Below, piece after piece: positions 1-13,288 of a DNA stretch of 64,000 nucleotides. The first letter of the stretch is position 1, and each line of letters opens with the position of its first letter. A program made the position numbers and the translations under genes. The notes beneath the pieces are model-generated. The model made no database searches, was not told the DNA's origin, and worked only from the letters and a program-made list of their open reading frames with translations. Location: contig DAIUKG010000006.1 in NCBI GenBank assembly GCA_036848375.1, positions 44,941-108,940 of the forward strand, in the 5' to 3' direction. This DNA comes from Spirochaetota bacterium. Lineage in GTDB: Bacteria > Spirochaetota > UBA4802 > UBA5550.

Positions 1-845
1 ATATTAAGGTCTGATTTTAAATGCGATTCAATTATACGAAAGATTGTCAGATAGTTACTTTTCCCGTCTTTGAATGCCTGGTATTCTTTAGAAACAAGAA
101 TATCTTTAAGATGATCTCGAACGTACAATATTTTTTGTATAAATTCAGATTGCGTTACGGTGGATAATGTTTCTGCGTCTTCAACTAAACTTGTCAGGTC
201 CAGCAACAGTTGATAATATTTTTTTTCATTAAAAAGCTCTTCGCATCTTTTGATTTTACGTTCTGTATAATTACGTTCGGTATCAGTAAGATCTCTTTTC
301 CTCAATTCATAGGCAAATGCAAACCGCACGGCTTCAGTAAATATCTCGTCTAAAACCCTTTTTGAATAACAGGAAGGATCTTCGATACCTTTGATTTGAC
401 CTAAAAAAACAAAAGGGGTTCTTCGAATAATATCATGGCTTATTGAAAACAGTGGCTGCTGGATATACTCATACGTGGGAAGATATCGGTACAGTTCTCT
501 TGGCTGAGGAAATATAAAATTTTGCGCTTTTTCCTGTGCAATGTAGGGATTTTTATATTTATATAAATGTTTTAAGAACAAAATGTCTTCATCATCAAAA
601 TAGCCGTTTTGGTTTATATCTATTTTATGCTGGATCAGGCTGCTCTTCATGAAAGGATTATTTATAATGTTATTTAGCTCAGTTTCATCTAATTCATTCC
701 ATTGATTATCACTGTTTAAATCTCCAAGCATAATCAATTCTGAATTAATTTTAACTCGATTTACTGGAAGGTAATAGACTACTCCAGTAATTACACCTGC
801 CAATATAAAAATGATAGTAATGATTATTTTTTTTCTTTTATGCAC
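1..845 (-). CDS. hypothetical membrane-anchored protein, 3' end runs off the window (AT-rich, likely GTG start near 843-845)
   Basis: The minus-strand frame is open from ~845 to position 1. N-terminal K-rich segment plus hydrophobic helix (HKRKKIIITIIFILAGVITGVVYY). ~28% GC, unlike the rest of the window. The ORF track did not list it because it leaves the window. Confidence 0.4.
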   Translation of the reverse strand, partial: MHKRKKIIITIIFILAGVITGVVYYLPVNRVKINSELIMLGDLNSDNQWNELDETELNNIINNPFMKSSLIQHKIDINQNGYFDDEDILFLKHLYKYKNPYIAQEKAQNFIFPQPRELYRYLPTYEYIQQPLFSISHDIIRRTPFVFLGQIKGIEDPSCYSKRVLDEIFTEAVRFAFAYELRKRDLTDTERNYTERKIKRCEELFNEKKYYQLLLDLTSLVEDAETLSTVTQSEFIQKILYVRDHLKDILVSKEYQAFKDGKSNYLTIFRIIESHLKSDLN

Positions 846-1123
846 TTTAATTATCCTTAGCGAATTTAACGACTAAATGAGCTGACAACAGAAATAAAAA
901 AAATTTTAATTCCCATAACGAACAAATACCCCTAAATGATCCTTGACTTTTTGCTCATTAATTTCGATAATCTTACCAGTCATATGAGTCCTCCTTCTGA
1001 TTTAAAAAGTGTGGTTACTTAAATCGTCAGATCGAGGACTTTTTTATTATCTAAATGTGCGAAAGATATTTTCACTACCAGGGAGCGCAGTTGCTATGCT
1101 GAGCCAGGTGTCGTTTTTAATAT

Positions 1124-1243
1124 AAGGGAACCTCTATAAATTACATTTCGGATGTTCCCTTGTGGGCACAACCATTGGATAAATCAGGTTTTATCATTTT
1201 TCAATTAATGAAAAAACCTGATTTTTAGAGGTGCCCATAATTT
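1124..1243. repeat. structured ~120-bp repeat, copy 1 (family also at 4711-4828 inverted and 13115-13288)
   Basis: AAGGGAACCTCTATAAATTACATTTCGGATGTTCCCTTGTGGGCAC...AAATCAGGTTTT...AAAACCTGATTTTTAGAGGTGCCCATAAT. Nested inverted repeats: GGGAAC/GTTCCC, GGGCAC/GTGCCC, AAATCAGGTTTT/AAAACCTGATTT, and ACCTCTA/TAGAGGT between the two ends. Confidence 0.8.
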
Positions 1244-1648
1244 ATAGCCGTAGAAAATATAGATATTATTATTTTTCAAGTATTCAAATATTTTACCTGA
1301 TTCCAAGAAATCTAAATATTTTTCTGATTTAATTTTTAGCCATTCAATATCTTTATAATCTATATTACTTTGATCTCCAATATGCTCTATGAATGTTTCT
1401 TCATAAAATAAATTAGTGTTTTTATAGGATACTTTATTTTTATTATTATCATAGGAATAGAACTGACCAATTATTCTTGGTTTATCTTCATTAATTAATT
1501 TTATAGATAAAAACTCAACTTCAAAATCTACTTCATCTAATGAATCAAATAAATATTTCCATTTACTATTATTCATATAGCTATTTAGTTGTTTTTTCAT
1601 AATAAAATAATGAATATAAAAATGACGCTTAACTAAAATTAACCTCAT
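1205..1648 (-). CDS. hypothetical 147-aa protein, AT-rich; the last codons run into repeat copy 1
   Basis: Complete ORF in the six-frame track. ~27% GC and Asn/Lys/Tyr-rich. No recognisable domain. Confidence 0.45.
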   Translation of the reverse strand: MRLILVKRHFYIHYFIMKKQLNSYMNNSKWKYLFDSLDEVDFEVEFLSIKLINEDKPRIIGQFYSYDNNKNKVSYKNTNLFYEETFIEHIGDQSNIDYKDIEWLKIKSEKYLDFLESGKIFEYLKNNNIYIFYGYKLWAPLKIRFFH

Positions 1649-1649
1649 T

Positions 1650-2340
1650 TCATTTTATCACCACACACCCCATGAGGCACAACGCCAGCCCATCAATTAA
1701 CAGCGTTAGTTCTTCGCCAGCACAAACTGTAATCGACTCTATTGAATAGTCAAGGAAATAATGGGTCCCCCCTGTAGGGACCGGTCGCGACCGGTCCCTA
1801 CAGGGGGGACCCTCGACATCATATACCGGGCCCGCACTCTTCCCTCTCCCGATAGCGCGGTCATGGACGACCGTGCTGGGAAGCAACAGGATGTTGCACA
1901 TGCAGGCGCGTCCAGGATGGACAAAAAAGCGCCTGCCTAGTCTGTCAGGATGACAATACGAGCCCCGCACCATAGGTTCATGCCGCGGACGTGACGGAAG
2001 GTTCCGGTTACACTCTTTTCTGAATCCCGTCCGCCGTGAGGCGGACACCTGTCAGGCGTCTGTCTGAGCCGAAAGGAGCATAGCGACGTCGGCGAGTTTC
2101 GCCCGAAGCCCGTCGCGGCGTCTGAGCGACCGCCCTCTCTTTTCGGCCTTTTCTCTGGGCGATGCAGAGAAAAGGCCATCGTGTTCCCGGCCCCGGCAAC
2201 AACCCTCTCACGCCGGTAACGGCGTGCAACAAGCCGGAGGCTTATATTTTAGCTCGTTCCAAAAGCGGCAAACCCCCAACTCGTGTCACGAGTTAAAACA
2301 CCCCGGGCAGGCTGCCCGCATGATTTCCCACCCCTCTTTA
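1650..2340. other. GC-rich (~58%) non-coding block with many hairpins; candidate structured ncRNA or mobile-element remnant
   Basis: All six frames give Arg/Pro-rich nonsense ORFs. Perfect hairpins GTCCGCC-GTGA-GGCGGAC (2028-2045), GGCCTTTTCTCTG-N7-CAGAGAAAAGGCC (2145-2177), CACGCC-GGTAAC-GGCGTG and AACTCG-N5-CGAGTT. There is a sharp compositional jump against AT-rich flanks. Confidence 0.35.
1765..1810. repeat. 46-bp perfect palindrome GTCCCCCCTGTAGGGACCGGTC GC GACCGGTCCCTACAGGGGGGAC, followed by the conserved tail GGACCCTCGACATCAT
   Basis: Read directly from the sequence. The same C6-CTGCAG-G6 core recurs at 2939-2953 and 3636-3685. The tail recurs at 2952-2967. Confidence 0.9.
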
Positions 2341-2375
2341 TTAAACTTTAAGCGAGGAAGGCGAAAAGCAAAACT

Positions 2376-2780
2376 CTATATGAATACAGATGGTGATACC
2401 GAGAATTTTTTTGCTAATAATTTTATTTGTCTTATATTTAATTCTCTTTTGCCATGTAATATTTCAGATACAACACCCTGTGATCCTATTTCACGCAAAT
2501 CTGATTGTTTTAATCCATGTTCAGACATGAGTTCTTTTAAGATGGTCACAACGCCGGGCTGGTTAATTGTATATTTTTCCTCTTCATACTTTTCAATGAG
2601 CAAGCCAATGGTTTCCATGAGAAGAGCCAAAGGATGTTTATCATTATTGCCGACCTCATCGACGAGTTCATCTAATCTTTTACAAAGATTATTATAATCT
2701 TTTTTATTATGGGGCACGCTCAACAGTTCAGCTACTGAAGGCCACAATTTTTCAATGTTTTTTAATTCTGCACTTAACAT
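2376..2780 (-). CDS. higA: HigA-family antitoxin (C-terminal XRE-type helix-turn-helix)
   Basis: 134 aa. The C-terminus QSDLREIGSQGVVSEILHGKRELNIRQIKLLAKKFSVSPSVFI is a typical HTH_XRE. It lies 1 nt downstream of a higB-like reading frame, the HigBA gene order. Confidence 0.7.
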   Translation of the reverse strand: MLSAELKNIEKLWPSVAELLSVPHNKKDYNNLCKRLDELVDEVGNNDKHPLALLMETIGLLIEKYEEEKYTINQPGVVTILKELMSEHGLKQSDLREIGSQGVVSEILHGKRELNIRQIKLLAKKFSVSPSVFI

Positions 2781-2781
2781 T

Positions 2782-2938
2782 TTATTTTTTCCATTTGTTT
2801 TTATTATATTCAGTATGAGTCAAGACATGGCGAATGTATACTATTTTACGATTATAATGAATAGCCGCGATTAATCGATATTTATTACCTCCAATATTAA
2901 AAACGGTTAAATCATTAACAATATCAGCATATGGAAAT
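2782..2938 (-). pseudogene. higB: HigB (RelE/ParE-fold 'killer protein') toxin gene, missing its 5' end; only the C-terminal ~50 codons are recognisable
   Basis: The minus-strand translation ...YADIVNDLTVFNIGGNKYRLIAAIHYNRKIVYIRHVLTHTEYNKNKWKK* matches the HigB C-terminal motif (GGNKYRLI...Y[IV]R.[IL]GTHxEYDK). Upstream the frame runs into the palindromic element at 2939 with no start codon or toxin N-terminal domain. Confidence 0.6.
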
Positions 2939-3060
2939 ATCCCCCCTGCAGGGGGACCCTCGACATCATTTTTCGGCCTACACTCTTTCTCCCCCTTTAC
3001 GTAAAGGGGGCCGGGGGAATTTCTCCTCCACCTCCCCGGCGGCCCTGTGCGCCACTTTTA
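2939..3060. repeat. G/C-palindrome cluster inserted at the 5' end of higB: CCCCCCTGCAGGGGG + GGACCCTCGACATCAT tail, then CCCCCTTTACGTAAAGGGGG (2989-3008) and CCGGGG...CCCCGG
   Basis: The first ~55 nt (palindrome, ACCCTCGACATCAT, ~8 nt, CGGCCYRCACTCTTYC) are colinear with 1795-1850. This suggests a small palindrome-associated repeat or mobile sequence. Confidence 0.5.
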
Positions 3061-3162
3061 AAACTTTTTTTAATTATCCGGGAACCCCCTTCCTGTTCGC
3101 GGGTTAATTATATAAATTCCGGGAGATACGCCCGATTTCAGATAATAAAGGAAATAAATCCC

Positions 3163-3591
3163 ATGAAACACATGATATACCTGCTGTTCGCGCTGGTCCT
3201 TTTCGCGGTCGCCTGCACTGACGAGGAAAACGACGATTACCAGGTAAGGATCAAGACCTTCGGCTATCCGTGCCTTGGGTGGATCGACAGCGATGATGAA
3301 ACGATAACGTTCGCTGCAGACGATTTTGAGGGGGATGACGGCATCTATTACTACACGAAAAACCTCGACAGCCCCGACACGGTAAGCGTGATTGCCCAGG
3401 GATACTACAACAGCGAGTCAGAGTACACCGAAAGCATTTACGTGTCTATTTACGAGAACGACGAGAAGGTAGCGTCAGAAACCGATACCACGAGCATCAC
3501 CTATGACAACGGCGAGGTCGAATATGTGGAAAAGGCGTACGTTTCGCTTGATTACACCTTCGATGATGATGATGACGACGACGATGAGTGA
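3163..3591 (+). CDS. small acidic lipoprotein (signal peptide with AVAC lipobox; C-terminal poly-Asp tail)
   Basis: MKHMIYLLFALVLFAVAC|TDEEN... 142 aa. It ends ...FDDDDDDDDE. GGAAATAAATCCCATG provides a plausible RBS. Confidence 0.6.
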   Translation: MKHMIYLLFALVLFAVACTDEENDDYQVRIKTFGYPCLGWIDSDDETITFAADDFEGDDGIYYYTKNLDSPDTVSVIAQGYYNSESEYTESIYVSIYENDEKVASETDTTSITYDNGEVEYVEKAYVSLDYTFDDDDDDDDE

Positions 3592-3635
3592 AAGCAGTAA
3601 CACCACGGAATTGAGAGAACATGATGTTGGCAATA

Positions 3636-3695
3636 GAATCCCCCCTGCAGGGAACGGGCATGCCCGTTCCCTGCAGGGGGGATTCTATCTTTTTT
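3636..3695. terminator. 50-bp perfect palindrome (GAATCCCCCCTGCAGGGAACGGGC AT GCCCGTTCCCTGCAGGGGGGATTC) followed by a T-run; likely intrinsic terminator, possibly bidirectional
   Basis: A GC-rich stem is followed by TCTTTTTTACT, 45 nt downstream of the lipoprotein gene stop. Confidence 0.6.
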
Positions 3696-3774
3696 ACTAT
3701 TATTGAAACAGCAGGCGCAACCCGGCCTGTATGAGCCAGGCGTTGTCGAGCGAATATTTCACCCGGTACTCATC

Positions 3775-4644
3775 CTAGTATCTTTTAAACTCGCTTCTGC
3801 CGTAAATATATGACGCGCCGAACTGGTACCCGGCAAAAGCCACGAGGGCGATATTGCGGTGGATGTATGTGGAGATACGTTCGCCCGCGCGATGGTATTC
3901 ATAAAAGAGATTTTCTTTTTTGTTTTCCCTGCGGTTGAGCATGTACACGTCCTTGTCATAAGAATATTCCGTGCCCAGGATCAAAAACGAAAGCGGCCTG
4001 AACTCAAACGCGGTAAAGATTGACGCGACCGGAATATATCTGAACCGAAGGGTAAAATAGTCTTTCGGTTTCCAGACAAGCCGGGTTAACAACCCGAGGG
4101 TGAAGTCAACTTCATCATTTACAAACTTGTAACTGATCATGGGGATAGGTATGGGCAGGCCGATGTTGCGGGTTATCAGCGAAGAGTAGTTGACCCCGAA
4201 GCTGACCGAATGGGGCCCCTCCTGATAAATCTCATAGTACATCGTGGAAGTAATGGCAAAATCATCGAAACTTCTGAACGGCCTGTTGGTATTGTTGGAA
4301 AAACTGAAAAGAAAACTCACCTTGTCAAGATAAAAGCTGAAGGTCTCCTGTATCCGGTACAGCTCGACAGGCACAGGAATGTCCGTTTCGCGATTGGTGT
4401 AGGTAAAAAACAGATAGTTTTTGATTCTCGTGCCGCTGTTCACGTGAAACGTGTCAATGAACGAGGCGTCACAGGCATTGACATCCTCATCAGGGCCTTC
4501 ACTCTTGTGATACAGAAACGTGAGAATGTGGTCCGGCTGTTTTTCTTTTGGGGGGATGTTTTTGTTCTCGTCATCTGCCGTAACCCTGTGGGGAAAGAAA
4601 ATTATGCAGATGATCAGGGCTGTTGTGTAAAATATATGCTTCAT
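3775..4644 (-). CDS. hypothetical secreted protein, possibly an outer-membrane beta-barrel
   Basis: 289 aa from MKHIFYTTALIICIIFFPHRVTA (signal peptide). Alternating hydrophobic pattern with many aromatic residues. It ends ...GRSEFKRY. No family recognised. Confidence 0.5.
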   Translation of the reverse strand: MKHIFYTTALIICIIFFPHRVTADDENKNIPPKEKQPDHILTFLYHKSEGPDEDVNACDASFIDTFHVNSGTRIKNYLFFTYTNRETDIPVPVELYRIQETFSFYLDKVSFLFSFSNNTNRPFRSFDDFAITSTMYYEIYQEGPHSVSFGVNYSSLITRNIGLPIPIPMISYKFVNDEVDFTLGLLTRLVWKPKDYFTLRFRYIPVASIFTAFEFRPLSFLILGTEYSYDKDVYMLNRRENKKENLFYEYHRAGERISTYIHRNIALVAFAGYQFGASYIYGRSEFKRY

Positions 4645-4710
4645 TGACAAGCTCACCTCTCCACTGTCTCACGACTATTGTTACAAGACCCGGGAAGGGT
4701 CAAGATAATT

Positions 4711-4828
4711 TTAAGGGCACCTCTAAAAATCAGGTTTTTTCATTAATTGAAAAATGATAAAACCTGATTTATCCAATGGTTGTGCCCACAAGGGAACATC
4801 CGAAATGTAATTTATAGAGGTTCCCTTA
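4711..4828. repeat. structured repeat copy 2, reverse complement of copy 1
   Basis: AAGGGCACCTCTAAAAATCAGGTTTTTTCATTAATTGAAAAATGATAAAACCTGATTTATCCAATGGTTGTGCCCACAAGGGAACATCCGAAATGTAATTTATAGAGGTTCCCTT is a near-perfect reverse complement of 1124-1243. Confidence 0.8.
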
Positions 4829-4983
4829 AAATTCTGCTTTCACGATTTTCCAAAAGTACCGAAACCAGAACTTCAATTGCCGGGATGCGTGATGACGACG
4901 ACACAAGCCGTGCAGCAGATCAATGCCACGGATGTGACGGACGATACACGTGCACACGAGAGATGTCATCCCCCCTTGCACAT

Positions 4984-5012
4984 AAAAAAAAAGATGAACC
5001 GTGCGGTCCATC
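4984..5012 (-). terminator. hairpin (GATGGACC-GCAC-GGTTCATC on the minus strand) followed by a 9-nt U-run, downstream of the 5051-5788 gene
   Basis: The stem has one mismatch in 8 bp. It is followed by TTTTTTTTT on the transcribed strand. Confidence 0.4.
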
Positions 5013-5050
5013 TTAGCGAATGAACTTATTGAAACCCGGTTAGATGCCTG

Positions 5051-5788
5051 TTAAAACCGAATCCCGAAAAACACGGAAACCTCAACTCCGTTATAATCCG
5101 TGTTTTCAAAAATGTGGTAATACTTCGCCTCAACACCCACCGTGTATCGCTGCATAAACGTGTACATCACGTTAACGCCGCCGTCGATCATCATGTCCGC
5201 GGAAGCATCATTCATCACATTGTTCCGCTCTTCCATGTTCGCGATGATGACAGCAAGCCCCACTCCGGCCAGCAGCTGAAGGTCAAAGCCCTTTCCCAGG
5301 GGGAAGGTCAGGAACGGATGAGCGATAAAATACAGAAACCGGATGTTGCCGTCATACGTGTTGTCGTCAAGCTGGGTGAACCCCCCGTCAACTCCGAGCC
5401 CGAACCACCAGATGATGTCCTGGTACTGAAAGAATATCCTTCCGGACACCTGACCGTCGACGATGTCGCCCAGGTCCTGGAGGGGGACAAAGTAGCCCAG
5501 GTCAAACCCGAGGAGCATTTTCTTCTTCGGCACCGCAGCTGACTCGTCAAGTTTTTCATCCTTTGCCTGTTTTTCATCTTTAACCGCTTTTGCCGCCGCC
5601 TTTGACAAGGGCTTCGTTGTCTGCACGGTCTTTTTTACCGCGGTCTTTCCGGCCTGGGCTTTCTCGCCAGCGGCCCATGCCCGGCCAAAACCCGCGAAAA
5701 CAAGCATCGCGGCAAGGACGGCGGCGCATACCCACACAGGCCGGCGGCGCTCCGTGTATTTTTCAGAAGAAACATGCTTACTCATCAT
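5051..5788 (-). CDS. outer-membrane beta-barrel protein (OmpA-like barrel/OMP_b-brl type) with a Lys/Ala-rich linker; C-terminal Phe
   Basis: Start taken at MMSKH, where GAGG lies 7 nt upstream; the ORF track begins 21 codons earlier. Signal peptide VWVCAAVLAAMLVFAGFGRAWA. Amphipathic beta-strand patterning. It ends ...VSVFFGIRF. Confidence 0.55.
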   Translation of the reverse strand: MMSKHVSSEKYTERRRPVWVCAAVLAAMLVFAGFGRAWAAGEKAQAGKTAVKKTVQTTKPLSKAAAKAVKDEKQAKDEKLDESAAVPKKKMLLGFDLGYFVPLQDLGDIVDGQVSGRIFFQYQDIIWWFGLGVDGGFTQLDDNTYDGNIRFLYFIAHPFLTFPLGKGFDLQLLAGVGLAVIIANMEERNNVMNDASADMMIDGGVNVMYTFMQRYTVGVEAKYYHIFENTDYNGVEVSVFFGIRF

Positions 5789-5860
5789 CACCGGCCTCGC
5801 ATTCAAGTTCAGGTCACTTTTCATTGATTTTTTTCCATCCCTGTTATTCATAACCGCCTC

Positions 5861-8800
5861 CTACCAGTCAAACACGTCCTTGTCCCTGTTGTCATAAGCC
5901 GGGAATGATTTACTGATACTTGCAAAGGAATTGACCACCGAAATATCATCGATATCGATGACCTCGGTCGCTCCGGCAACCGTTATCGTTATCGCTTTCC
6001 ACAGGTACTTGCTGCCGGCGCCGCTCGGGAACGAGACCTCCCTGACCATGCCGTACTCGTTGTACACCCTCATGACCACATCAGAAGCATACCAGTTTGA
6101 CTCTGAGTAGTTGTGTACCGAGAACTTGTACACGCCGCCGGCATAATCGCCAACATTTTTGAAGATATTGATCGCCTCGGGCCCGTAGCCTTCGGTCGCG
6201 TCCTGCACCAGGCTCGTGGTCGAGCTGGTCCCGTTGGAATCTCCGCTTGAGCTGTAATACCCGCTGGTCACGGTCTCGTTGAACGACTTCTGGTTGCGGT
6301 AGAACACGTGGAACCGGTTGTTTGTCGGCCCGCCATAACTCGAATCCGTTTCCTGGACCGTATGGCTTGACGGCCCCACAACGTGCAGGTCAAGGTCCCG
6401 AGGATCTGATCCCCACTGCACGGTCACGCGTATCTGGTAGGGGGCGAGGTTCTGGCAGATCGCGATCCTTCCCTGTGCCTCGGCGCCGTCGCGGCCGTCG
6501 ACAACGACATTGTTCTTGGTAAAGGTGTAAAAACCGGATTTGGTCACGCGCAATGAATAGATCCCGGGGTCAACACTGGACATGGTGAAGGTCCCGGTTG
6601 AGGTTGTCGTGTACGTGAACTCGCTTACCTCGTCACCGCTGTAGTCAATGAGCTCAACGACTGCTCCTTCGACATTGTTTCCCCAGTTCGCGTCAACGAT
6701 CTGGCCGGTAATATTCGAAGCAGTGGCGCTGGTCTCGATAATGTAAATTGAACCGCAATCCGTTACTGCTCCATAGGTTACTGAAACGGAGTCCTTTTTA
6801 CCTGAATAGTATCCTGTTTTTTCAACCAGCAGGCTGTACCGGTTCGCGCCGATCGGAACGGTATCGGTAAAGCTGAATGAACCGTCGCTGAGCGTATCGT
6901 CAGTAGCGACAACGGTATCATCATCCGGGTCGTCAGGATCGTTGACGTCGATCAGCGAAACGGTCGCTGCTTCGATCATCTCGGAAGTGTTCAGGCCGTT
7001 CACCACGTGCCCGGTTATTGAGCCGACCACGTCAAGGCCGTCTGAACGATTTCCCCAGCCGCTCCAGTTCCCCAGGCTGTCGCTTACCCTGATGCGGGCG
7101 TAATACTGTGAACCGTCTTCGGTTGAAACCACGTACTGGTGGTGGCCCGCTTCGGTCACGCCGCCTTCGTATACAACACCTGAAAGGCTGAATGAATCAT
7201 CGGTTGAAACCTGGATTTCGGCTTCAGCTATGTCTGAATCGTCAGTCCAGTAAAAATCAACATAAAGGTCAGTGTTATATTCAACACCGTCGTCGTTGAC
7301 GTCCGGCACTGCCGGTGCTTCTTTGTCAACGGTCCAGGTGTAGGTCGCGATGTCCTCATCATCCACCCAGTTGCCCTGCGCGTCACGCCCTTTCACTTCA
7401 AGCACGTACTCGGTTTCAGGGTCGCCGGCAAGGTCGGTGAGAGTCAGGGCAGTCGCCACAGCCGTATCGGCTGACCAGCCAGTCCAGGTTGAACCGTCAG
7501 AGTAACGGTAACTGTAGTGTGAAACGTCAGTGCCGCTTACGCTGAAGGTAAAATCATCGTCAGCGGTGCTCCCGTTCTGGGGCACGGCAGGGTCAGGGGA
7601 TGTCATGGTCAGCGTTACCGACGCAGGCGGCGTCAGGTCAATGGACCATGAATATTCGGTGGCCATAAACTCAGGCTGCCAGTTCGCGCCGTCGTAGCCG
7701 ACTACCGCGATCTCATGGTCGCCTTCGGCCAGCGTTTCAACGATATAGTCGGCGATTTCATAGTCGGTGCTCCATGCGCCGCTGTCAATGCTGTACCTAT
7801 AATGGGTCACGCCGGTGCCGCCGACGCGGATGCCGGTCGAGCTGCTTCCGGTCGGGTCTGCCGGCTTGTTGAACAGTTCGGCAACGGGATACCCGGCAAG
7901 GCCCACGGTCCAGGTATGGGTCGTGGCGGATGACGGGTTCACCACGGAAGCGTCTCCCTGCCAGTTGCCCACGGCGTCTTTGCCGATCACTTCAAGATAA
8001 TAGGTCTCGTCAGGGGTCAGGTCGCTCAGTTCAATGTGCACTGAAACATCGGTCTCATCGCTCCATCCGTCAGCGTCGCCCCCGATCCATGAACCGCCGT
8101 CGATTTTGTACCGGTACTTGTAGGTTACGACCGAATCGCTCTCAGCGGTTTCGGCTTCAACCGTAATATCGGTAAAATTGAAAACACCGTCTTCAGGAAG
8201 GTCGCTCAGCACCGCGATCGGGGCAGTGACGTCCACGACCCAGGAACAGGATGTCGGGGATGAATCGCTCTGCCAGGTCCCGGCGCTGTTCAGGGCGATG
8301 ACGTCAACCTGGTATGATCCGTCTTCGAGGTCTTCAAGTGCGATGTGCTCCGATACCGCTGTCTGCGCGGACCACGATCCGCTGTTCACACGGTACTGGT
8401 ACGCAACGACATTCGTGCCGCCAACGGTAATGTCGGTTGTCTGTGATGCAGTGGATGATGCCGGTGTATTGGAAAGCACTGCCGTAGGGTCGGACGTATC
8501 GATCACCCATGAATACCACTGGGTCGTGTCCTCAAGGGGCTCTGAATACGGCGTTTCATTAAGGGCACGGTCAACACCGATCACGTAAAGGGTATAGGTC
8601 CCGTCACGGTCGAGCACCGCGCTCGTGAGGTTGATATCATCGCTCACCGGGTATCTTCCGGTCCAGGTTCCTTCATCGGTCTCGCCGCCGTAGGTGTAGT
8701 CCAGACGATATCGGTACCAGTACACATCATCCCCGCTCACCGCTATATTCGCGGTTGTCGTGTTCGTCGGGTCATTGGGTAAATTCGAAAGTATGATTGC

Positions 8801-10081
8801 GTCTTTTGATGGAGGCGTCATATCCACGGTCCAGGAATATGATGTCGGAGACAGGGGGTCCTGCTCCGTGCCCGCGCTGTTCCTTCCCAGGACTTCGATC
8901 GTGTGCTCATCTTCGGAAAGGCCGTCAACCTGAATCCGCTGTGCGATTGCGGTCCATCCGCTCCAGGAGGCGCTGTCGATCCGGTACTGGTAATGGGTTA
9001 TTTCCGTGCCGCCAACGGCGATGTCGATACTGTCACTGCTGGTGTATTCAGCCGGCTCGTCAGTGAGTTCCGCGACCGGGTTGTCCCGGTTTACCATCCA
9101 GGTGTAGGAATAGGCCGTCTCCTGCCAGTTCCCTGCGGTGTCCATTGCAAGGACCTCAAGTGTGTAGTCCGTGGGGGGTATGCCGGTGAGATCGCTCAGG
9201 GAAATGGGAACACTGGCCGCGGTTTCATCCGACCAGTCGCCGCCGGTTATGCGGTATTTATACGCGGAAATTTCAGTGCCGCTCACGGTTATGGTCGCGC
9301 TGTTTTCCGTGGTCACCGACGCGGGAAGACCTGACAGGGCCAGATCATCGCTTACCGGGCTTTTCCGGTCAATGCGCCAGGTAAACACCGTGGGCTCATC
9401 CTGCCACAGCCCGGCCTCACTTTTGCCGAGCACTGAAAGCGTGTGGGTTTCATCGCTGCCGGCAGGGGTCAGATCCGTGTCCACAATATCAGTTGAGGCG
9501 GAAATCTCTTCAGACCATCCGCCCCCGTCAAGATCGTATTTATAAAATCCGGCATCGTTGTCTTCGACCTCACCGTCGCCGTCTTCGTCTATGGACACAT
9601 CAATCTCGATGTCGCCGCTGTTCGTCAGCGCTGCCGGCGTGTTGGCAAGATACGCTGCCACAAGGCCCCTTCCTGAATAGTCAACGACCTGGCCTTTAAG
9701 CGTATTGCCTTTTTCATCCCTGATGCCGCTTGCGGACAGCTGATAAATTCGTCCGGTCACCATTCCCTGTGAAACCGTGAGAACAACGGTGTTCAAACCG
9801 GACAGTTCAGCGCCGGTTATCGTGATAACCGGTGATCCCTGTATAAAATAATTGCCGCTGTTTTCGGCAGTGGATTTGGTTATATTTTCTGAAAACTGGA
9901 CTTCAACCGTAGTATAGGACGAAGCCTGTACTGATGCTATCCTGGGCGGGGTCGTGTCCATCGAGGACCTGAAATCACTGTAGGACGAAATCGCCCCTTT
10001 ACATGACTGGATGAACCCAGCCAGAATGATGATTGCTATGATTTTCCCGTATTTTTTTGGAATTCCCTTTCCCGTTTTCAT
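5861..10081 (-). CDS. giant repetitive cell-surface lipoprotein: signal/lipobox, >=8 tandem ~95-aa beta-sandwich (Ig-like) repeats, then CarboxypepD_reg-like domains
   Basis: Start chosen at MKTGKGIPKKYGKIIAIIILAGFIQSC, where GGAGG lies 6 nt upstream. A repeated motif Y.Y[RK].D.G.WS...T.....L.DG.[HY].L.V.[GA].D.AGNWQ recurs about 9 times. The C-terminal part contains ...SDGSFSFTDTVPIGANRYSLLVEKTGYY... Confidence 0.7.
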   Translation of the reverse strand: MKTGKGIPKKYGKIIAIIILAGFIQSCKGAISSYSDFRSSMDTTPPRIASVQASSYTTVEVQFSENITKSTAENSGNYFIQGSPVITITGAELSGLNTVVLTVSQGMVTGRIYQLSASGIRDEKGNTLKGQVVDYSGRGLVAAYLANTPAALTNSGDIEIDVSIDEDGDGEVEDNDAGFYKYDLDGGGWSEEISASTDIVDTDLTPAGSDETHTLSVLGKSEAGLWQDEPTVFTWRIDRKSPVSDDLALSGLPASVTTENSATITVSGTEISAYKYRITGGDWSDETAASVPISLSDLTGIPPTDYTLEVLAMDTAGNWQETAYSYTWMVNRDNPVAELTDEPAEYTSSDSIDIAVGGTEITHYQYRIDSASWSGWTAIAQRIQVDGLSEDEHTIEVLGRNSAGTEQDPLSPTSYSWTVDMTPPSKDAIILSNLPNDPTNTTTANIAVSGDDVYWYRYRLDYTYGGETDEGTWTGRYPVSDDINLTSAVLDRDGTYTLYVIGVDRALNETPYSEPLEDTTQWYSWVIDTSDPTAVLSNTPASSTASQTTDITVGGTNVVAYQYRVNSGSWSAQTAVSEHIALEDLEDGSYQVDVIALNSAGTWQSDSSPTSCSWVVDVTAPIAVLSDLPEDGVFNFTDITVEAETAESDSVVTYKYRYKIDGGSWIGGDADGWSDETDVSVHIELSDLTPDETYYLEVIGKDAVGNWQGDASVVNPSSATTHTWTVGLAGYPVAELFNKPADPTGSSSTGIRVGGTGVTHYRYSIDSGAWSTDYEIADYIVETLAEGDHEIAVVGYDGANWQPEFMATEYSWSIDLTPPASVTLTMTSPDPAVPQNGSTADDDFTFSVSGTDVSHYSYRYSDGSTWTGWSADTAVATALTLTDLAGDPETEYVLEVKGRDAQGNWVDDEDIATYTWTVDKEAPAVPDVNDDGVEYNTDLYVDFYWTDDSDIAEAEIQVSTDDSFSLSGVVYEGGVTEAGHHQYVVSTEDGSQYYARIRVSDSLGNWSGWGNRSDGLDVVGSITGHVVNGLNTSEMIEAATVSLIDVNDPDDPDDDTVVATDDTLSDGSFSFTDTVPIGANRYSLLVEKTGYYSGKKDSVSVTYGAVTDCGSIYIIETSATASNITGQIVDANWGNNVEGAVVELIDYSGDEVSEFTYTTTSTGTFTMSSVDPGIYSLRVTKSGFYTFTKNNVVVDGRDGAEAQGRIAICQNLAPYQIRVTVQWGSDPRDLDLHVVGPSSHTVQETDSSYGGPTNNRFHVFYRNQKSFNETVTSGYYSSSGDSNGTSSTTSLVQDATEGYGPEAINIFKNVGDYAGGVYKFSVHNYSESNWYASDVVMRVYNEYGMVREVSFPSGAGSKYLWKAITITVAGATEVIDIDDISVVNSFASISKSFPAYDNRDKDVFDW

Positions 10082-10338
10082 AATCGCCTCCAAAATCTAT
10101 TAAGTTCATTCTCTCTTTTTCAAGCCCGCCCAGGTGGGCTTTATTTTTAAATTACTATTAATTGGCCGCATGGTCAAGAGTAATAATAAATTAATTGTGC
10201 CATTTATCATTTTTTTTGTAAATTTTATGCCGTTATATGACATAATAACGGTTATTCAAACGAATTAATGAATTAAAAAATGTTTGACATCTGCCCTTTT
10301 TTTCATGGGATTGATGAACACCAACAAAGGAAGACATT

Positions 10339-12479: not shown

Positions 12480-12875
12480 TTATTTCAGCATCACCAGCGA
12501 CAGTCCTTTAATTTCCTTAAAGTGCTTGTCTCGCGTTATGAGTTGCAGACCGTATTGAATTGCCAGTGCAGCAACCCAAATATCATTTTCGGGGATAGGT
12601 TTGCCTTTCTTTTTCAGTTCACTTTTAAGGCTGCCATATATTTTTGCTGTCTCGATATTATTTTCGAGGATTGAAGAACAGGCAATGAACTCTTCTAATC
12701 TTTTTTTATTCTCATTCTTTCGTAAAGAATTATGAATGCCATAGTACAATTCACCAATAACAGTATTACAAATAAAAATTTCTTTTGCTGTAGTAAGCTT
12801 TTTAATCACTTCCCGGTCATTATTAAAAAGAGCAATAATAATATTTGTATCGAGTAAATACTTACCACTCGCCAT
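12480..12875 (-). CDS. vapC: PIN-domain ribonuclease toxin (VapC family)
   Basis: MASGKYLLDTNIIIALFNND... carries the conserved PIN acidic residues. It overlaps the upstream small gene by ~14 nt. The stop codon abuts the rlmB stop with no intergenic space. Confidence 0.8.
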   Translation of the reverse strand: MASGKYLLDTNIIIALFNNDREVIKKLTTAKEIFICNTVIGELYYGIHNSLRKNENKKRLEEFIACSSILENNIETAKIYGSLKSELKKKGKPIPENDIWVAALAIQYGLQLITRDKHFKEIKGLSLVMLK

Positions 12876-13092
12876 TATCAACCTTCTCACAGCCATCTTC
12901 TATTACTTCAAGAATTTGGTGGGCCTCGGCATCACTTAATGTTCCTGCAAATTTCAATAAATCTTTACCGGATTTACCTTTCGTCTGAACGCTGGCCAAT
13001 GCATGGGCAAAATCCTGTACTTTTTTTTGCAGATCAAGAGGAAGCTTTTCCATATCATTTATCAGCTTCTTTTTAATTTCAGGTCTAATCAT
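12862..13092 (-). CDS. cognate antitoxin (DUF2281-like small protein)
   Basis: 76 aa, ...KLPLDLQKKVQDFAHAL... It sits immediately upstream of the PIN gene and overlaps it, as in type II TA operons. Confidence 0.55.
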   Translation of the reverse strand: MIRPEIKKKLINDMEKLPLDLQKKVQDFAHALASVQTKGKSGKDLLKFAGTLSDAEAHQILEVIEDGCEKVDNGEW

Positions 13093-13114
13093 AAAGCTCC
13101 TCCCGGATTAGAAT

Positions 13115-13288
13115 AAGGGAACCTCTCTAAATAACATTTTTGATGTTCCCTTGTGGGTATCCCGATTCCTTATAGCTATTTAATGAATCGGGAGATAAAT
13201 CAGGTTTTATACCCCTACTAACTCCCCCTATCAGGGGGAGAATAAAAGAGGGGGTTAAAAACCTAATTTTTAGAGGTACCCATAATAA
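13115..13288. repeat. structured repeat copy 3, same orientation as copy 1, expanded by two extra stem-loops
   Basis: It shares AAGGGAACCTCTCTAAATAACATTTTTGATGTTCCCTTGTGGGTA...ATAAATCAGGTTTTAT...AAAACCTAATTTTTAGAGGTACCCATAAT. Inserted hairpins are TCCCGATTC...GAATCGGGA and CTCCCCC-CTATCA-GGGGGAG. The GGGCAC/GTGCCC stem of copy 1 is replaced by GGGTA/TACCC, a compensatory change. Confidence 0.75.

What the first reader, a model, noticed from the sequence alone, without database searches (positions are those of the whole stretch)
1124..4828. Two inverted copies of a structured ~120-bp repeat bracket a 3.5-kb patchwork segment
Copies at 1124-1243 and 4711-4828 are near-perfect reverse complements of each other. 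Between them lie an AT-rich orphan gene, a 690-nt GC-rich non-coding block, higA plus a truncated higB, an acidic lipoprotein and a putative outer-membrane protein. Base composition jumps abruptly several times across the segment. The layout resembles a composite element or accessory islet bounded by MITE-like inverted repeats. No transposase is present, so any mobility would have to come in trans, or the repeats are recombination or regulatory sites.
Basis: seen in the sequence. Interest (0 to 1): 0.6.

Follow-up and report, generated by a model that had tools for sequence, protein, structure and literature searches.

The report
Two independent MITE insertions, not a composite element
The two inverted 120-bp repeats are separate insertions of a small non-coding transposon (a MITE) that is scattered in dozens of copies through this spirochaete genome and its relatives, and their bracketing of a 3.5-kb segment is a coincidence of landing in AT-rich accessory DNA.

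Summary
Window 1126-1236 (+) and 4715-4825 (-) are 111/111 identical reverse complements.

They are not a special pair. A third, diverged copy lies at 13117-13281, and the family is a dispersed MITE.
- It is 109-117 bp long, with imperfect 15-bp terminal inverted repeats (GGGAACYTCTAWAAA / GGGCACCTCTAAAAA).
- It is flanked by a 4-bp target-site duplication, preferentially ATAA or TTAA.
- I found 124 unique insertion loci in 14 Spirochaetota genomes and in digester metagenomes.
- At least 25 copies occur in one assembly of the window's own species.
- Eleven distinct loci carry exactly the A/B sequence.
- Two filled/empty site pairs between related genomes show precise insertion.

Copy A has its own ATAA/ATAA duplication and copy B its own TTAA/TTAA. 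They therefore inserted separately. The segment has not transposed as a unit and shows no net inversion.

In a related species, about 6.1 kb between the conserved OMP gene and a conserved 162-aa gene is absent. This block extends beyond both repeats, so the repeats lie inside the variable islet and do not bound it.

The two-hairpin fold is real and covaries, but nothing points to an orientation-dependent function. The transposase was not found.

Verdict: an ordinary, previously unnamed MITE family.

Side observation: the GC-rich "non-coding block" is a mosaic of a second, unexplained repeat family.

The parts
1122..1240 (+). MITE copy A. Element proper 1126-1236 (111 bp). 4-bp target-site duplication ATAA at 1122-1125 and 1237-1240.
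   Evidence: The insertion replaced the last codons of the DUF6678 ORF; without it the ORF would end ...YGYKLY* (read from the sequence).
4711..4829 (-). MITE copy B. Element proper 4715-4825, 111/111 identical to A. Target-site duplication TTAA at 4711-4714 and 4826-4829. It sits in the intergenic gap between the 266-aa OMP gene and the 289-aa OMP-like gene.
13113..13285 (+). MITE copy C, a diverged long variant of 165 bp with two extra hairpins. Element proper 13117-13281. Duplication ATAA/ATAA. It lies about 10 nt upstream of the vapB ribosome-binding site.
1205..1648 (-). AT-rich ORF of 147 aa (DUF6678). Its last 11 codons are derived from the MITE and its duplication.
1650..2340 (.). GC-rich block with no convincing ORF. 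It is a mosaic of GC-rich, hairpin-forming repeat units. Unit X lies at 1826-1881 plus 1929-2011. Unit Y lies at about 2010-2277. Both recur at other accessory loci of the same species.
   Evidence: No Rfam match.
1763..1812 (.). Perfect 25+25 GC-rich palindrome (GGGTCCCCCCTGTAGGGACCGGTCG/...). It is followed by about 50 nt that is repeated at 2951-2997.
2376..2780 (-). higA-like antitoxin (HTH_3), 134 aa.
2781..2939 (-). Remnant of a higB-like toxin gene. Only the C-terminal ~50 aa remain. It is cut exactly where the short palindrome TCCCCCCTGCAGGGGGGA (2940-2955) begins.
   Evidence: The HigB assignment is by eye.
3163..3591 (+). Acidic lipoprotein ORF of 142 aa, with a lipobox Cys and a poly-Asp tail.
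   Evidence: No Pfam hit.
3633..3688 (.). Perfect 28+28 GC-rich palindrome between the convergent lipoprotein and OMP-like genes. It is terminator-like on both strands.
3775..4656 (-). OMP-like ORF (289-293 aa, signal peptide, C-terminal Tyr). In one MAG it is interrupted by an IS3-family element at 4154.
5051..5851 (-). 266-aa beta-barrel OMP gene. This is the first gene conserved in the related species, so it marks the right edge of the species-specific block.
1..872 (-). 5' part of an AT-rich 487-aa ORF with a dockerin-like stretch. It is also inside the species-specific block, which continues about 1.1 kb beyond the window start.
12480..13092 (-). vapB (12862-13092) and vapC/PIN (12480-12875) module next to copy C. 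It is absent from the syntenic locus of the relative.

Best explanation
The repeat is a miniature inverted-repeat transposable element (MITE). It is a roughly 111-bp non-coding DNA transposon.

Shown here:
- It has imperfect 15-bp terminal inverted repeats.
- It inserts precisely at (A/T)TAA and duplicates those four bases.
- It is present in many copies.

Inferred, not shown: it is moved in trans by a DDE-type transposase encoded elsewhere. This follows from the inverted repeats plus a fixed-length duplication.

Copies A and B are two independent, recent insertions of the currently most abundant subfamily. They landed in AT-rich, intergenic, species-specific DNA between a conserved OMP gene and murB. 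Copy C is an older insertion next to a vapBC module.

The copies cluster here because the target is AT-rich and because insertions in accessory intergenic DNA are tolerated. The 3.5-kb segment between A and B is not a mobile unit.

The element folds, as DNA or RNA, into two hairpins. P1 pairs GGGAAC with GTTCCC. P2 pairs GGGCAC with GTGCCC and encloses a variable hairpin, P3. These are maintained by compensatory changes. I read this as a constraint of the element's own life cycle or stability, not as evidence of a host function.
For: Family size and spread:
83 of the stretches come from 14 Spirochaetota assemblies. 37 come from one MAG and 17 from another.
- A 22-mer scan of metagenomes gave 83 stretches, which resolve into about 61 distinct loci.
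- 25 copies occur in the single assembly ERZ795048, which also holds the window locus.

Target-site duplication:
- Over 124 unique loci the flanks are ATAA/ATAA 98 times, TTAA/TTAA 7 times and ATCA/ATCA twice.
- Non-ATAA flanks co-occur on both sides with Fisher p = 1e-7.

Mobility:
- L058 (filled) against L053 (empty) reads ACA-ATAA-[element]-ATAA-ATT against ACA-ATAA-ATC.
- L084 (filled) against L039 (empty) is equally precise.

Independent insertion of A and B:
- Each has its own flank pair.
- No similarity extends beyond the duplication.
- The A/B sequence is the commonest variant, at 11 distinct loci.

Location:
- 0 of 72 copies (window species) and 6 of 76 (other genomes) fall in ORFs of at least 100 aa, against about 82% background.
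- Flanks have 38% GC against 46% for the loci.
- There is no significant orientation bias relative to flanking genes: 19:12 and 19:10.
- Close pairs in either relative orientation are frequent.

Synteny:
- The relative (JAKLIV01 / DAOTBY01) keeps SpoU-CysS-1408 aa-OMP and 169 aa-...-MurB.
- It lacks L001 9595-15740, which corresponds to window about -1095 to 5050.
- It has no MITE at that locus.

Stability of the arrangement: all assemblies that span the region are colinear at 99.9-100% identity.

Structure:
- 94.8% of cells are paired, against 85.9% in shuffles and at most 59% for slid controls.
- 23 of 28 pairs show double changes, and 13 of 13 in P3 (per-subfamily arms).
Against: - No autonomous element with matching inverted repeats was found in about 1.4 Mb of fetched loci. 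The transposase, and therefore the DDE mechanism, is inferred.
- The near-invariant ATAA means the duplication rests on the minority of non-ATAA sites plus two empty sites.
- In one empty site the tetranucleotide reads GTAA rather than ATAA.
- The invariance of the central 16-19 nt is by ascertainment, because it was my search pattern.
- The covariation count was made on an alignment fitted to the structure, among related sequences.
- No empty allele of copy B was found in metagenomes, and copies A and C were not tested. Insertion polymorphism is therefore shown for the family, not for these three copies.
Confidence: 0.85

Rival explanations
1. The two inverted copies and the DNA between them form a composite transposon or mobilisable islet. 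It would move as a unit when a transposase acts on the two outer ends.
For: - Two identical elements lie in inverted orientation 3.5 kb apart.
- The cargo is accessory-like: a TA remnant, orphan genes and mixed GC content.
- The whole region is absent from a related species.
Against: - The outer flanks differ (ATAA vs TTAA).
- Each copy's inner flank matches its own outer flank, which is the signature of two single insertions.
- The species-specific block extends about 2.2 kb beyond A and about 0.2 kb beyond B.
- Every contig of this species that reaches the interval carries it, and all that span it have it in the same place. The one exception is a MAG whose contig diverges at an IS3 insertion at 4154.
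- No empty junction was found for copy B.
Confidence: 0.04
2. The 111-bp inverted repeats serve as recombination sites that invert the 3.5-kb segment. This would switch expression of the enclosed lipoprotein and OMP-like genes (phase variation).
For: - Perfect 111-bp inverted repeats are adequate substrates for homologous recombination.
- The segment encodes two predicted surface proteins.
- Copy B lies about 60 nt upstream of the OMP-like gene start.
Against: - All assemblies that span the region show one orientation.
- Intact ATAA/ATAA and TTAA/TTAA pairs mean no net inversion since insertion.
- No recombinase was found among the segment's ORFs or the called genes of the block.
- The same element sits at dozens of unrelated loci.
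- Low-frequency RecA-mediated inversion cannot be excluded from consensus assemblies.
Confidence: 0.05
3. The repeat is primarily a structured RNA or regulatory module whose copies are kept for a host function. Candidates are an sRNA, a 5'-UTR element or a bidirectional terminator.
For: - The fold is strong and conserved, with compensatory changes.
- P3 is followed by a T-run on both strands in most subfamilies (read from the alignment).
- Copy C sits directly upstream of vapB.
- There is a mild excess of same-sense orientation, 38:22 pooled.
Against: - The element shows target-site duplication and filled/empty sites.
- No Rfam family matches, even at E <= 1.
- There is no significant orientation bias and no consistent end facing the adjacent gene (window copies).
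- The simple terminator scan does not call the window copies.
- Exaptation of individual copies remains possible.
Confidence: 0.06
4. The element is mobilised as single-stranded DNA by an HUH (Y1) transposase. It would then resemble IS200/IS605-derived palindromic elements or REP/RAYT systems, with the hairpins as recognition structures.
For: - Both termini sit at the feet of hairpins (P1 and P2).
- The structure covaries.
- The flanking tetranucleotide is nearly invariant, as for IS200/IS605 target sites.
Against: - Non-consensus flanks co-vary on the two sides (TTAA/TTAA, ATCA/ATCA; p = 1e-7). This indicates a true duplication, which HUH transposition does not make.
- The element has 15-bp terminal inverted repeats, which those families lack.
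- No TnpA or RAYT gene was seen next to any copy. This was not searched systematically.
Confidence: 0.04

Closest known systems
Bacterial MITEs in general, for example Correia elements (CREE/NEMIS) of Neisseria
   Same: - Roughly 100-160 bp and non-coding.
- Terminal inverted repeats and a short fixed target-site duplication at an AT-rich target.
- Tens to hundreds of intergenic copies.
- A strong hairpin-forming potential.
- Subfamilies with internal length variants.
   Different: - Correia elements duplicate TA and have 26-bp inverted repeats.
- This family duplicates 4 bp ((A/T)TAA) and has 15-bp imperfect inverted repeats.
- It has a two-hairpin architecture: P1, a TTGT linker, then P2/P3.
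- The sequences are unrelated.
- No promoter, IHF-site or RNase III data exist for this family.
Conserved MITEs ('cMITEs') reported as enriched in Leptospirales/Spirochaetes (Nucleic Acids Res 2024, PMC11602168)
   Same: That survey reports about 150 MITEs per genome in Leptospirales and Spirochaetes, about 90% of them intergenic. This matches the host range and location found here.
   Different: - I could not check whether this particular family is among them, because no supplementary files are held.
- The core sequence occurs in no searchable paper in a relevant context.
- The hosts here are uncultured digester and environmental Spirochaetota MAGs.
Composite transposons (two IS or MITE copies flanking cargo)
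   Same: Two identical elements in inverted orientation flank accessory genes.
   Different: - There is no shared outer duplication, and each end has its own.
- The ends are non-autonomous.
- The variable block does not coincide with the ends.
IS families that make 4-bp duplications (IS5 group of IS5, IS701, IS1380, some IS3 groups), as candidate mobilisers
   Same: A 4-bp duplication and an AT-rich target. The IS5 group's YTAR target includes TTAA.
   Different: This is a recollection, not a test. No such IS with matching inverted repeats was found here. The one IS seen nearby (IS3 family, in L098) starts with TG, not GGG.
Integron attC sites / CALIN arrays (considered for the GC-rich units, not for the MITE)
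   Same: AT-rich TA and orphan cassettes, each followed by a structured repeat of about 130 nt, and co-oriented in one related locus (L175).
   Different: No RYYYAAC...GTTRRRY boxes are visible in the units, by inspection. No integrase was seen. No attC model was run.

Membership tests
MITE (non-autonomous DNA transposon) | Small size and no coding capacity | tested here: met
   109-117 bp in most of 124 loci. No ORF fits.
MITE (non-autonomous DNA transposon) | Terminal inverted repeats | tested here: met
   GGGAACYTCTAWAAA at the left end and GGGCACCTCTAAAAA (reverse complement) at the right end, 13/15 matching, conserved across the alignment.
MITE (non-autonomous DNA transposon) | Target-site duplication of fixed length | tested here: met
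   4 bp. ATAA/ATAA 98 times, TTAA/TTAA 7, ATCA/ATCA 2. Fisher p = 1e-7 for co-variation. The empty sites hold one copy of the tetranucleotide.
MITE (non-autonomous DNA transposon) | Many dispersed copies per genome | tested here: met
   At least 37 stretches in one MAG in a truncated scan. 25 copies in one assembly of the window species. Three in the window.
MITE (non-autonomous DNA transposon) | Insertion polymorphism (filled vs empty orthologous sites) | tested here: met
   L058/L053 and L084/L039. Not found for window copy B.
MITE (non-autonomous DNA transposon) | A cognate autonomous IS with the same inverted repeats | tested here: inconclusive
   None was found among inverted-repeat pairs 300-6000 bp apart, nor among multicopy ORFs in the fetched loci. 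IS copies are usually lost at contig ends in metagenome assemblies.
Composite transposon | One shared target-site duplication at the two outer ends | tested here: not met
   Outer flanks are ATAA (1122-1125) and TTAA (4826-4829). Each matches its own inner flank instead.
Composite transposon | Presence or absence of the unit coincides with the terminal elements | tested here: not met
   The block absent from the relative spans window about -1095 to 5050, beyond both copies.
Invertible DNA switch | Both orientations present in the population | tested here: not met
   Only one orientation is seen in all spanning assemblies. Consensus assemblies cannot show minority forms.
Invertible DNA switch | Adjacent site-specific recombinase | tested here: not met
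   No recombinase domain in the segment's ORFs, nor in the precomputed Pfam of genes in the 20-kb locus.
Known RNA family (Rfam) | Match to a curated covariance model | tested here: not met
   No hit at gathering threshold in the window. No hit at E <= 1 in three loci with copies. Only hairpin noise far below threshold in 1000-5100.
IS200/IS605-derived or REP-type ssDNA elements | No target duplication, no terminal inverted repeats, subterminal hairpins | tested here: not met
   Hairpins are present, but so are a co-varying 4-bp duplication and 15-bp inverted repeats.
Integron attC (for the GC-rich units) | R''/R' boxes RYYYAAC ... GTTRRRY closing an imperfect hairpin | tested here: not met
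   Inspection of unit X and Y sequences only. No attC covariance model was available.

The most novel reading that the evidence does not exclude
Two readings are not excluded.

(a) The element's covarying two-hairpin architecture reflects something beyond DDE recognition. In this architecture each terminus is paired with an internal copy of itself around a TTGT linker. The fold could be a structured single-stranded intermediate, or an exapted mobile RNA module such as a terminator or 5'-UTR element spread through Spirochaetota.

(b) Together with the second family of GC-rich structured units, the MITEs may mark an undescribed cassette-like organisation of accessory DNA in these spirochaetes. 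Those units follow TA and R-M modules and coincide with truncated toxin genes.
Probability: 0.1. Interest if true: 0.6.

Novelty: new member of a known kind. Interest (0 to 1): 0.27.

Why it matters
For annotation: the three copies should be labelled as MITE insertions. The 3.5-kb interval should not be called a transposon or an invertible element.

For mobile-element biology, the family is a clean, well-bounded example with several useful properties:
- Its ends and its 4-bp (A/T)TAA target are precisely defined.
- It shows a recent burst of identical copies.
- Its subfamilies swap a whole hairpin while keeping the pairing.
- It is spread across at least 14 uncultured Spirochaetota species.

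These properties could be used to hunt for its transposase. The insertions could also serve as strain markers in digester communities.

For assembly: the MITE and the GC-rich repeat units explain why several contigs of this organism break inside this region.

Tried and rejected
- **Rfam.** I searched at gathering and at permissive thresholds, on the window and on loci with copies. Nothing meaningful was found.
- **Autonomous partner.** I looked for inverted-repeat pairs 300-6000 bp apart and for multicopy ORFs in about 1.4 Mb of fetched loci. No candidate transposase emerged.
  - The one multicopy ORF family found (about 160 aa, in two Leptospira-labelled MAGs) has no Pfam match and is not consistently adjacent.
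- **Empty site of copy B.** Joining its flanks found no match in metagenomes.
- **Viral contigs.** One hit, which is a chance 19-mer without element ends.
- **Annotated plasmids and phages.** No match.
- **Literature by sequence and by keywords.** No description of this family was found.
- **Orientation bias relative to neighbouring genes.** Not significant.
- **Terminator call on the window copies.** Not made by the simple scan.
- **RNAalifold on the plain MAFFT alignment.** It recovered only P2, because the P3 arms of different subfamilies are misaligned by one column. I therefore used per-subfamily folds and a model-based alignment.
- **IS256 fragment guess.** I guessed that the 25-aa ORF at 905-983 is the start of an IS256-type transposase. 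There is no Pfam support, so I dropped it.
- **attC/integron reading of the GC-rich units.** No R boxes were seen by inspection.
- **tRNA/tmRNA near the units.** None found.

Full report
**1. The observation**

The inverted pair is real. The repeat finder gives arms 1123-1240 and 4711-4828, 118 nt and 99% complementary. A 24-mer from the repeat occurs only at these two places, and never in shuffles.

Read base by base, copy A is GGGAAC...GTGCCC at 1126-1236 and copy B is the same 111 bases on the minus strand at 4715-4825. They are 111/111 identical. The one mismatch in the 118-nt arms lies in the flanking tetranucleotide: ATAA on both sides of A, and TTAA on both sides of B.

The repeat folds far better than shuffles (-44.2 against -23.0 +/- 3.6 kcal/mol).

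- An AT-rich DUF6678 ORF.
- A GC-rich stretch at about 1650-2340 without a credible ORF.
- higA with an HTH_3 domain.
- A remnant encoding only the last ~50 residues of a HigB-like toxin (the assignment is by eye).
- An acidic lipoprotein and a signal-peptide OMP-like ORF.
- Abrupt GC steps.

**2. The repeat is a family, not a pair**

A short-word BLAST found a third, diverged copy at 13113-13285. It shares the ends and framework but carries two extra hairpins. A profile search finds exactly these three copies in the 64-kb window.

- 83 stretches come from 14 Spirochaetota assemblies, some labelled Leptospira or Leptospirales by their depositors.
- 37 stretches come from one MAG and 17 from another.
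- The other five are chance matches in unrelated phyla without the element's ends.

A 22-mer scan of metagenomes returned 83 stretches, most of them from the anaerobic-digester samples that hold the window's organism. These resolve into about 61 distinct loci. 25 copies lie in the single assembly ERZ795048.

**3. The repeat is a MITE**

Across 124 unique insertion loci the element is 109-117 bp in most cases. It starts GGGAACYTCTAWAAA and ends TTTTTAGAGGTGCCC, which is an imperfect 15-bp terminal inverted repeat.

The four bases on either side are ATAA/ATAA in 98 loci, TTAA/TTAA in 7 and ATCA/ATCA in 2. Non-ATAA flanks co-occur on the two sides far more often than chance (Fisher p = 1e-7). The flanks are therefore a true 4-bp target-site duplication with a strong (A/T)TAA preference, not part of the element.

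Joining the flanks of every copy and searching the other loci found two orthologous empty sites in a sister genome.
- L058 reads ...ACA ATAA [element] ATAA ATT..., where L053 reads ...ACA ATAA ATC...
- L084 and L039 behave the same way, with GTAA in the empty allele.

Copies are essentially never inside ORFs: 0 of 72 and 6 of 76, against about 82% background. Their flanks are AT-richer than their surroundings (38% against 46% GC).

**4. The pair does not bound a mobile or invertible unit**

- *Flanks.* Each copy has its own matching duplication, and the outer flanks of the pair differ (ATAA vs TTAA). A unit that had transposed on its outer ends would carry one shared duplication. An odd number of inversions between the copies would have swapped the inner flanks.
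- *Identity.* The perfect identity of A and B is not special. Their sequence is the commonest variant in the population, found at 11 distinct loci including these two. This indicates a recent burst.
- *Clustering.* Close pairs of copies 0.1-12 kb apart, direct or inverted, are frequent. One inverted pair lies around a restriction-modification/TA island in L175.
- *Synteny.* The closest relative I could reach has a 266-aa OMP orthologue at 60% identity.
  - It keeps SpoU-CysS-large surface protein-OMP on one side and 169 aa ... MurB-RNase T/WYL-... on the other.
  - It has nothing corresponding to L001 9595-15740, which is window about -1095 to 5050.
  - It has no MITE anywhere in the 21-kb syntenic locus.
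  - The variable block is therefore about 6.1 kb, and the two copies lie inside it.
  - vapBC and copy C are likewise absent from the relative.
- *Population.* Within the species, every assembly that spans the region is colinear at 99.9-100% identity.
  - One MAG has an IS3-family element inserted at window 4154.
  - No empty allele of copy B exists in the metagenome collection.

**5. Structure**

Three subfamilies fold independently into the same shape. P1 pairs the left terminus GGGAAC with GTTCCC. A TTGT linker follows. P2 pairs GGGCAC with the right terminus GTGCCC and encloses a long hairpin, P3.

The arms of P3 differ between subfamilies but stay complementary. Examples are AAAACCGCTTTC/GAAAGCGGTTTT, AAATCAGGTTTT/AAAACCTGATTT, AAATCAGGAGTT/AACTCCTGATTT and AAATTAGATTTTT/.... 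P2 shows GGGCAT/ATGCCC six times.

On a model-based alignment of 120 distinct copies:
- 94.8% of cells pair, against 85.9% in shuffles and at most 59% for slid partners.
- 23 of 28 pairs have double changes.
- All 13 pairs of P3 have double changes.

Three caveats apply. That alignment is fitted to the structure. The sequences are related. The invariance of the central 16-19 nt is imposed by my search patterns.

The data cannot say whether the fold matters in DNA or in RNA. There is no Rfam match and no significant orientation bias relative to neighbouring genes. The simple terminator scan does not call the window copies.

**6. Mechanism**

Shown: precise insertion at (A/T)TAA with a 4-bp duplication, terminal inverted repeats, multicopy spread, and a recent burst.

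Inferred: mobilisation in trans by a DDE-type transposase. This is the class that produces inverted-repeat-bounded elements with fixed staggered-cut duplications.

I could not find the enzyme. Metagenome assemblies usually lose IS copies at contig ends. A single-strand (HUH) mechanism is disfavoured by the co-varying duplication.

Local consequences here are minor.
- Copy A replaced the last two codons of the DUF6678 ORF with eleven element-derived ones.
- Copy B sits about 60 nt upstream of the OMP-like gene.
- Copy C sits about 10 nt upstream of the vapB ribosome-binding site.
- Effects on expression are untested.

**7. Comparison and novelty**

This is a typical bacterial MITE, comparable in size, location and foldability to Correia elements. 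It differs in sequence, inverted repeats and duplication length.

A 2024 survey reports that Leptospirales and Spirochaetes are unusually rich in MITEs, at about 150 per genome and about 90% intergenic (PMC11602168). I could not check whether this family is in that catalogue. Its core sequence appears in no searchable paper in a relevant context. It has no match in annotated plasmids or phages or in viral contigs.

I file it as a new member of a known kind.

**8. Side finding**

The GC-rich "non-coding block" is not unique sequence. Pieces of it recur at 81-89% identity at other accessory loci of the same organism.
- Unit X (about 130 nt) lies at window 1826-1881 plus 1929-2011, with a weak fragment at 4889-4948.
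- Unit Y lies at about 2010-2277.
- In L175 the units follow a type I restriction-modification block and two vapBC modules. A 137-138-nt tandem array there has each unit starting GCACTCTT.
- In L123, unit Y flanks a hicAB module whose hicA looks truncated at the unit boundary (my reading of the sequence, with no domain search). This parallels higB in the window, which is cut at the palindrome at 2940.
- One hairpin shows a compensatory change (GCGCGGGC/GCCCGCGC to GCGCGGTC/GACCGTGC).
- The units have no Rfam match and no attC boxes by inspection.

I could not explain them. They are the least ordinary thing in the interval. They also account for contigs of several assemblies ending between 1977 and 2944.

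Noticed in passing
window 1650-2340 (unit X 1826-1881 + 1929-2011; unit Y ~2010-2277; weak fragment 4889-4948); also L175 3219-3348, 8526-8655, 9653-9758; L126 70-271, 1723-1852; L123 811-941, 3096-3923: The GC-rich 'non-coding block' is a mosaic of GC-rich, hairpin-rich repeat units that recur at other accessory loci of the same organism. In L175 they follow a type I R-M block and two vapBC modules, and in L123 they flank a hicAB module. One hairpin shows a compensatory change. They have no Rfam match, no tRNA and no attC boxes by inspection. Their nature is unexplained.
   Followed up: partly
window 1763-1812, 2940-2955, 3633-3688; direct repeat 1745-1850 vs 2920-3000: GC-rich perfect palindromes built on TCCCCCCTGYAGGG occur only at these three sites in the 64-kb window, all between the two MITE copies. 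The first two are followed by the same ~50 nt (GGGGGACCCTCGACATCAT...CACTCTT). The higB-like remnant ends exactly at the second one.
   Followed up: partly
L175 8121-8541 and 2971-3234: A tandem array of a 137-138-nt GC-rich unit (3.1 and 1.9 copies), each unit starting GCACTCTT. It lies next to unit X and to a type I restriction-modification module in another contig of the same community.
   Followed up: no
L098 11699-12900 (NCBI MAG GCA_040774325.1), corresponding to window 4154: An IS3-family element (HTH_Tnp_1 + rve ORFs, end starting TGGTC...) interrupts the OMP-like gene in one MAG. The contig then continues with DNA that matches nothing else fetched, so that strain or bin differs to the left of 4154.
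   Followed up: partly
window 13117-13281; L057 1788-1934; L130 4743-4893; L153 1224-1371; L159 829-978: A long subfamily of the MITE (139-165 bp) has the P3 loop replaced by a GC-rich hairpin (...ACTCCCCCTATCAGGGGGAG...). Copy C also has a second inserted hairpin after P2. These look like nested micro-insertions.
   Followed up: no
L037 3655-3997; L128 2492-2833; L132 789-1130; L148 1768-2109: Two MITE copies lie in tandem about 105 nt apart (starts about 225 nt apart), at apparently orthologous or recurrent sites in two species.
   Followed up: no
L017, L053, L055, L058, L085 (and a second clade in L050, L072, L088): A multicopy ORF family of about 160 aa (MIKTTYMMTKEVL...IWWGLP...) with no Pfam match lies near MITE copies in two Leptospira-labelled MAGs. 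One of the filled/empty sites is about 100 nt upstream of a member.
   Followed up: partly
window 1-5050 plus ~1.1 kb left of the window (L001 9595-15740); window 12480-13285: Two species-specific insertions flank the conserved SpoU-CysS-surface protein-OMP block: the 6.1-kb islet, and vapBC with MITE copy C. The relative has Usp, an MCP and an SDR gene at the first position instead.
   Followed up: yes
window 1122-1125 / 1237-1240 and family-wide: The preferred target (A/T)TAA contains a stop codon, and copy A landed on the stop region of the DUF6678 ORF. The window-type MITE is about 93% identical between two species whose orthologous proteins are only 60-88% identical. This suggests recent horizontal spread or strong constraint.
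   Followed up: no
window 5861-10093: A very large (1410-aa) repeat-rich surface protein with a CarboxypepD_reg domain is conserved next to the OMP gene in all three related species examined.
   Followed up: no
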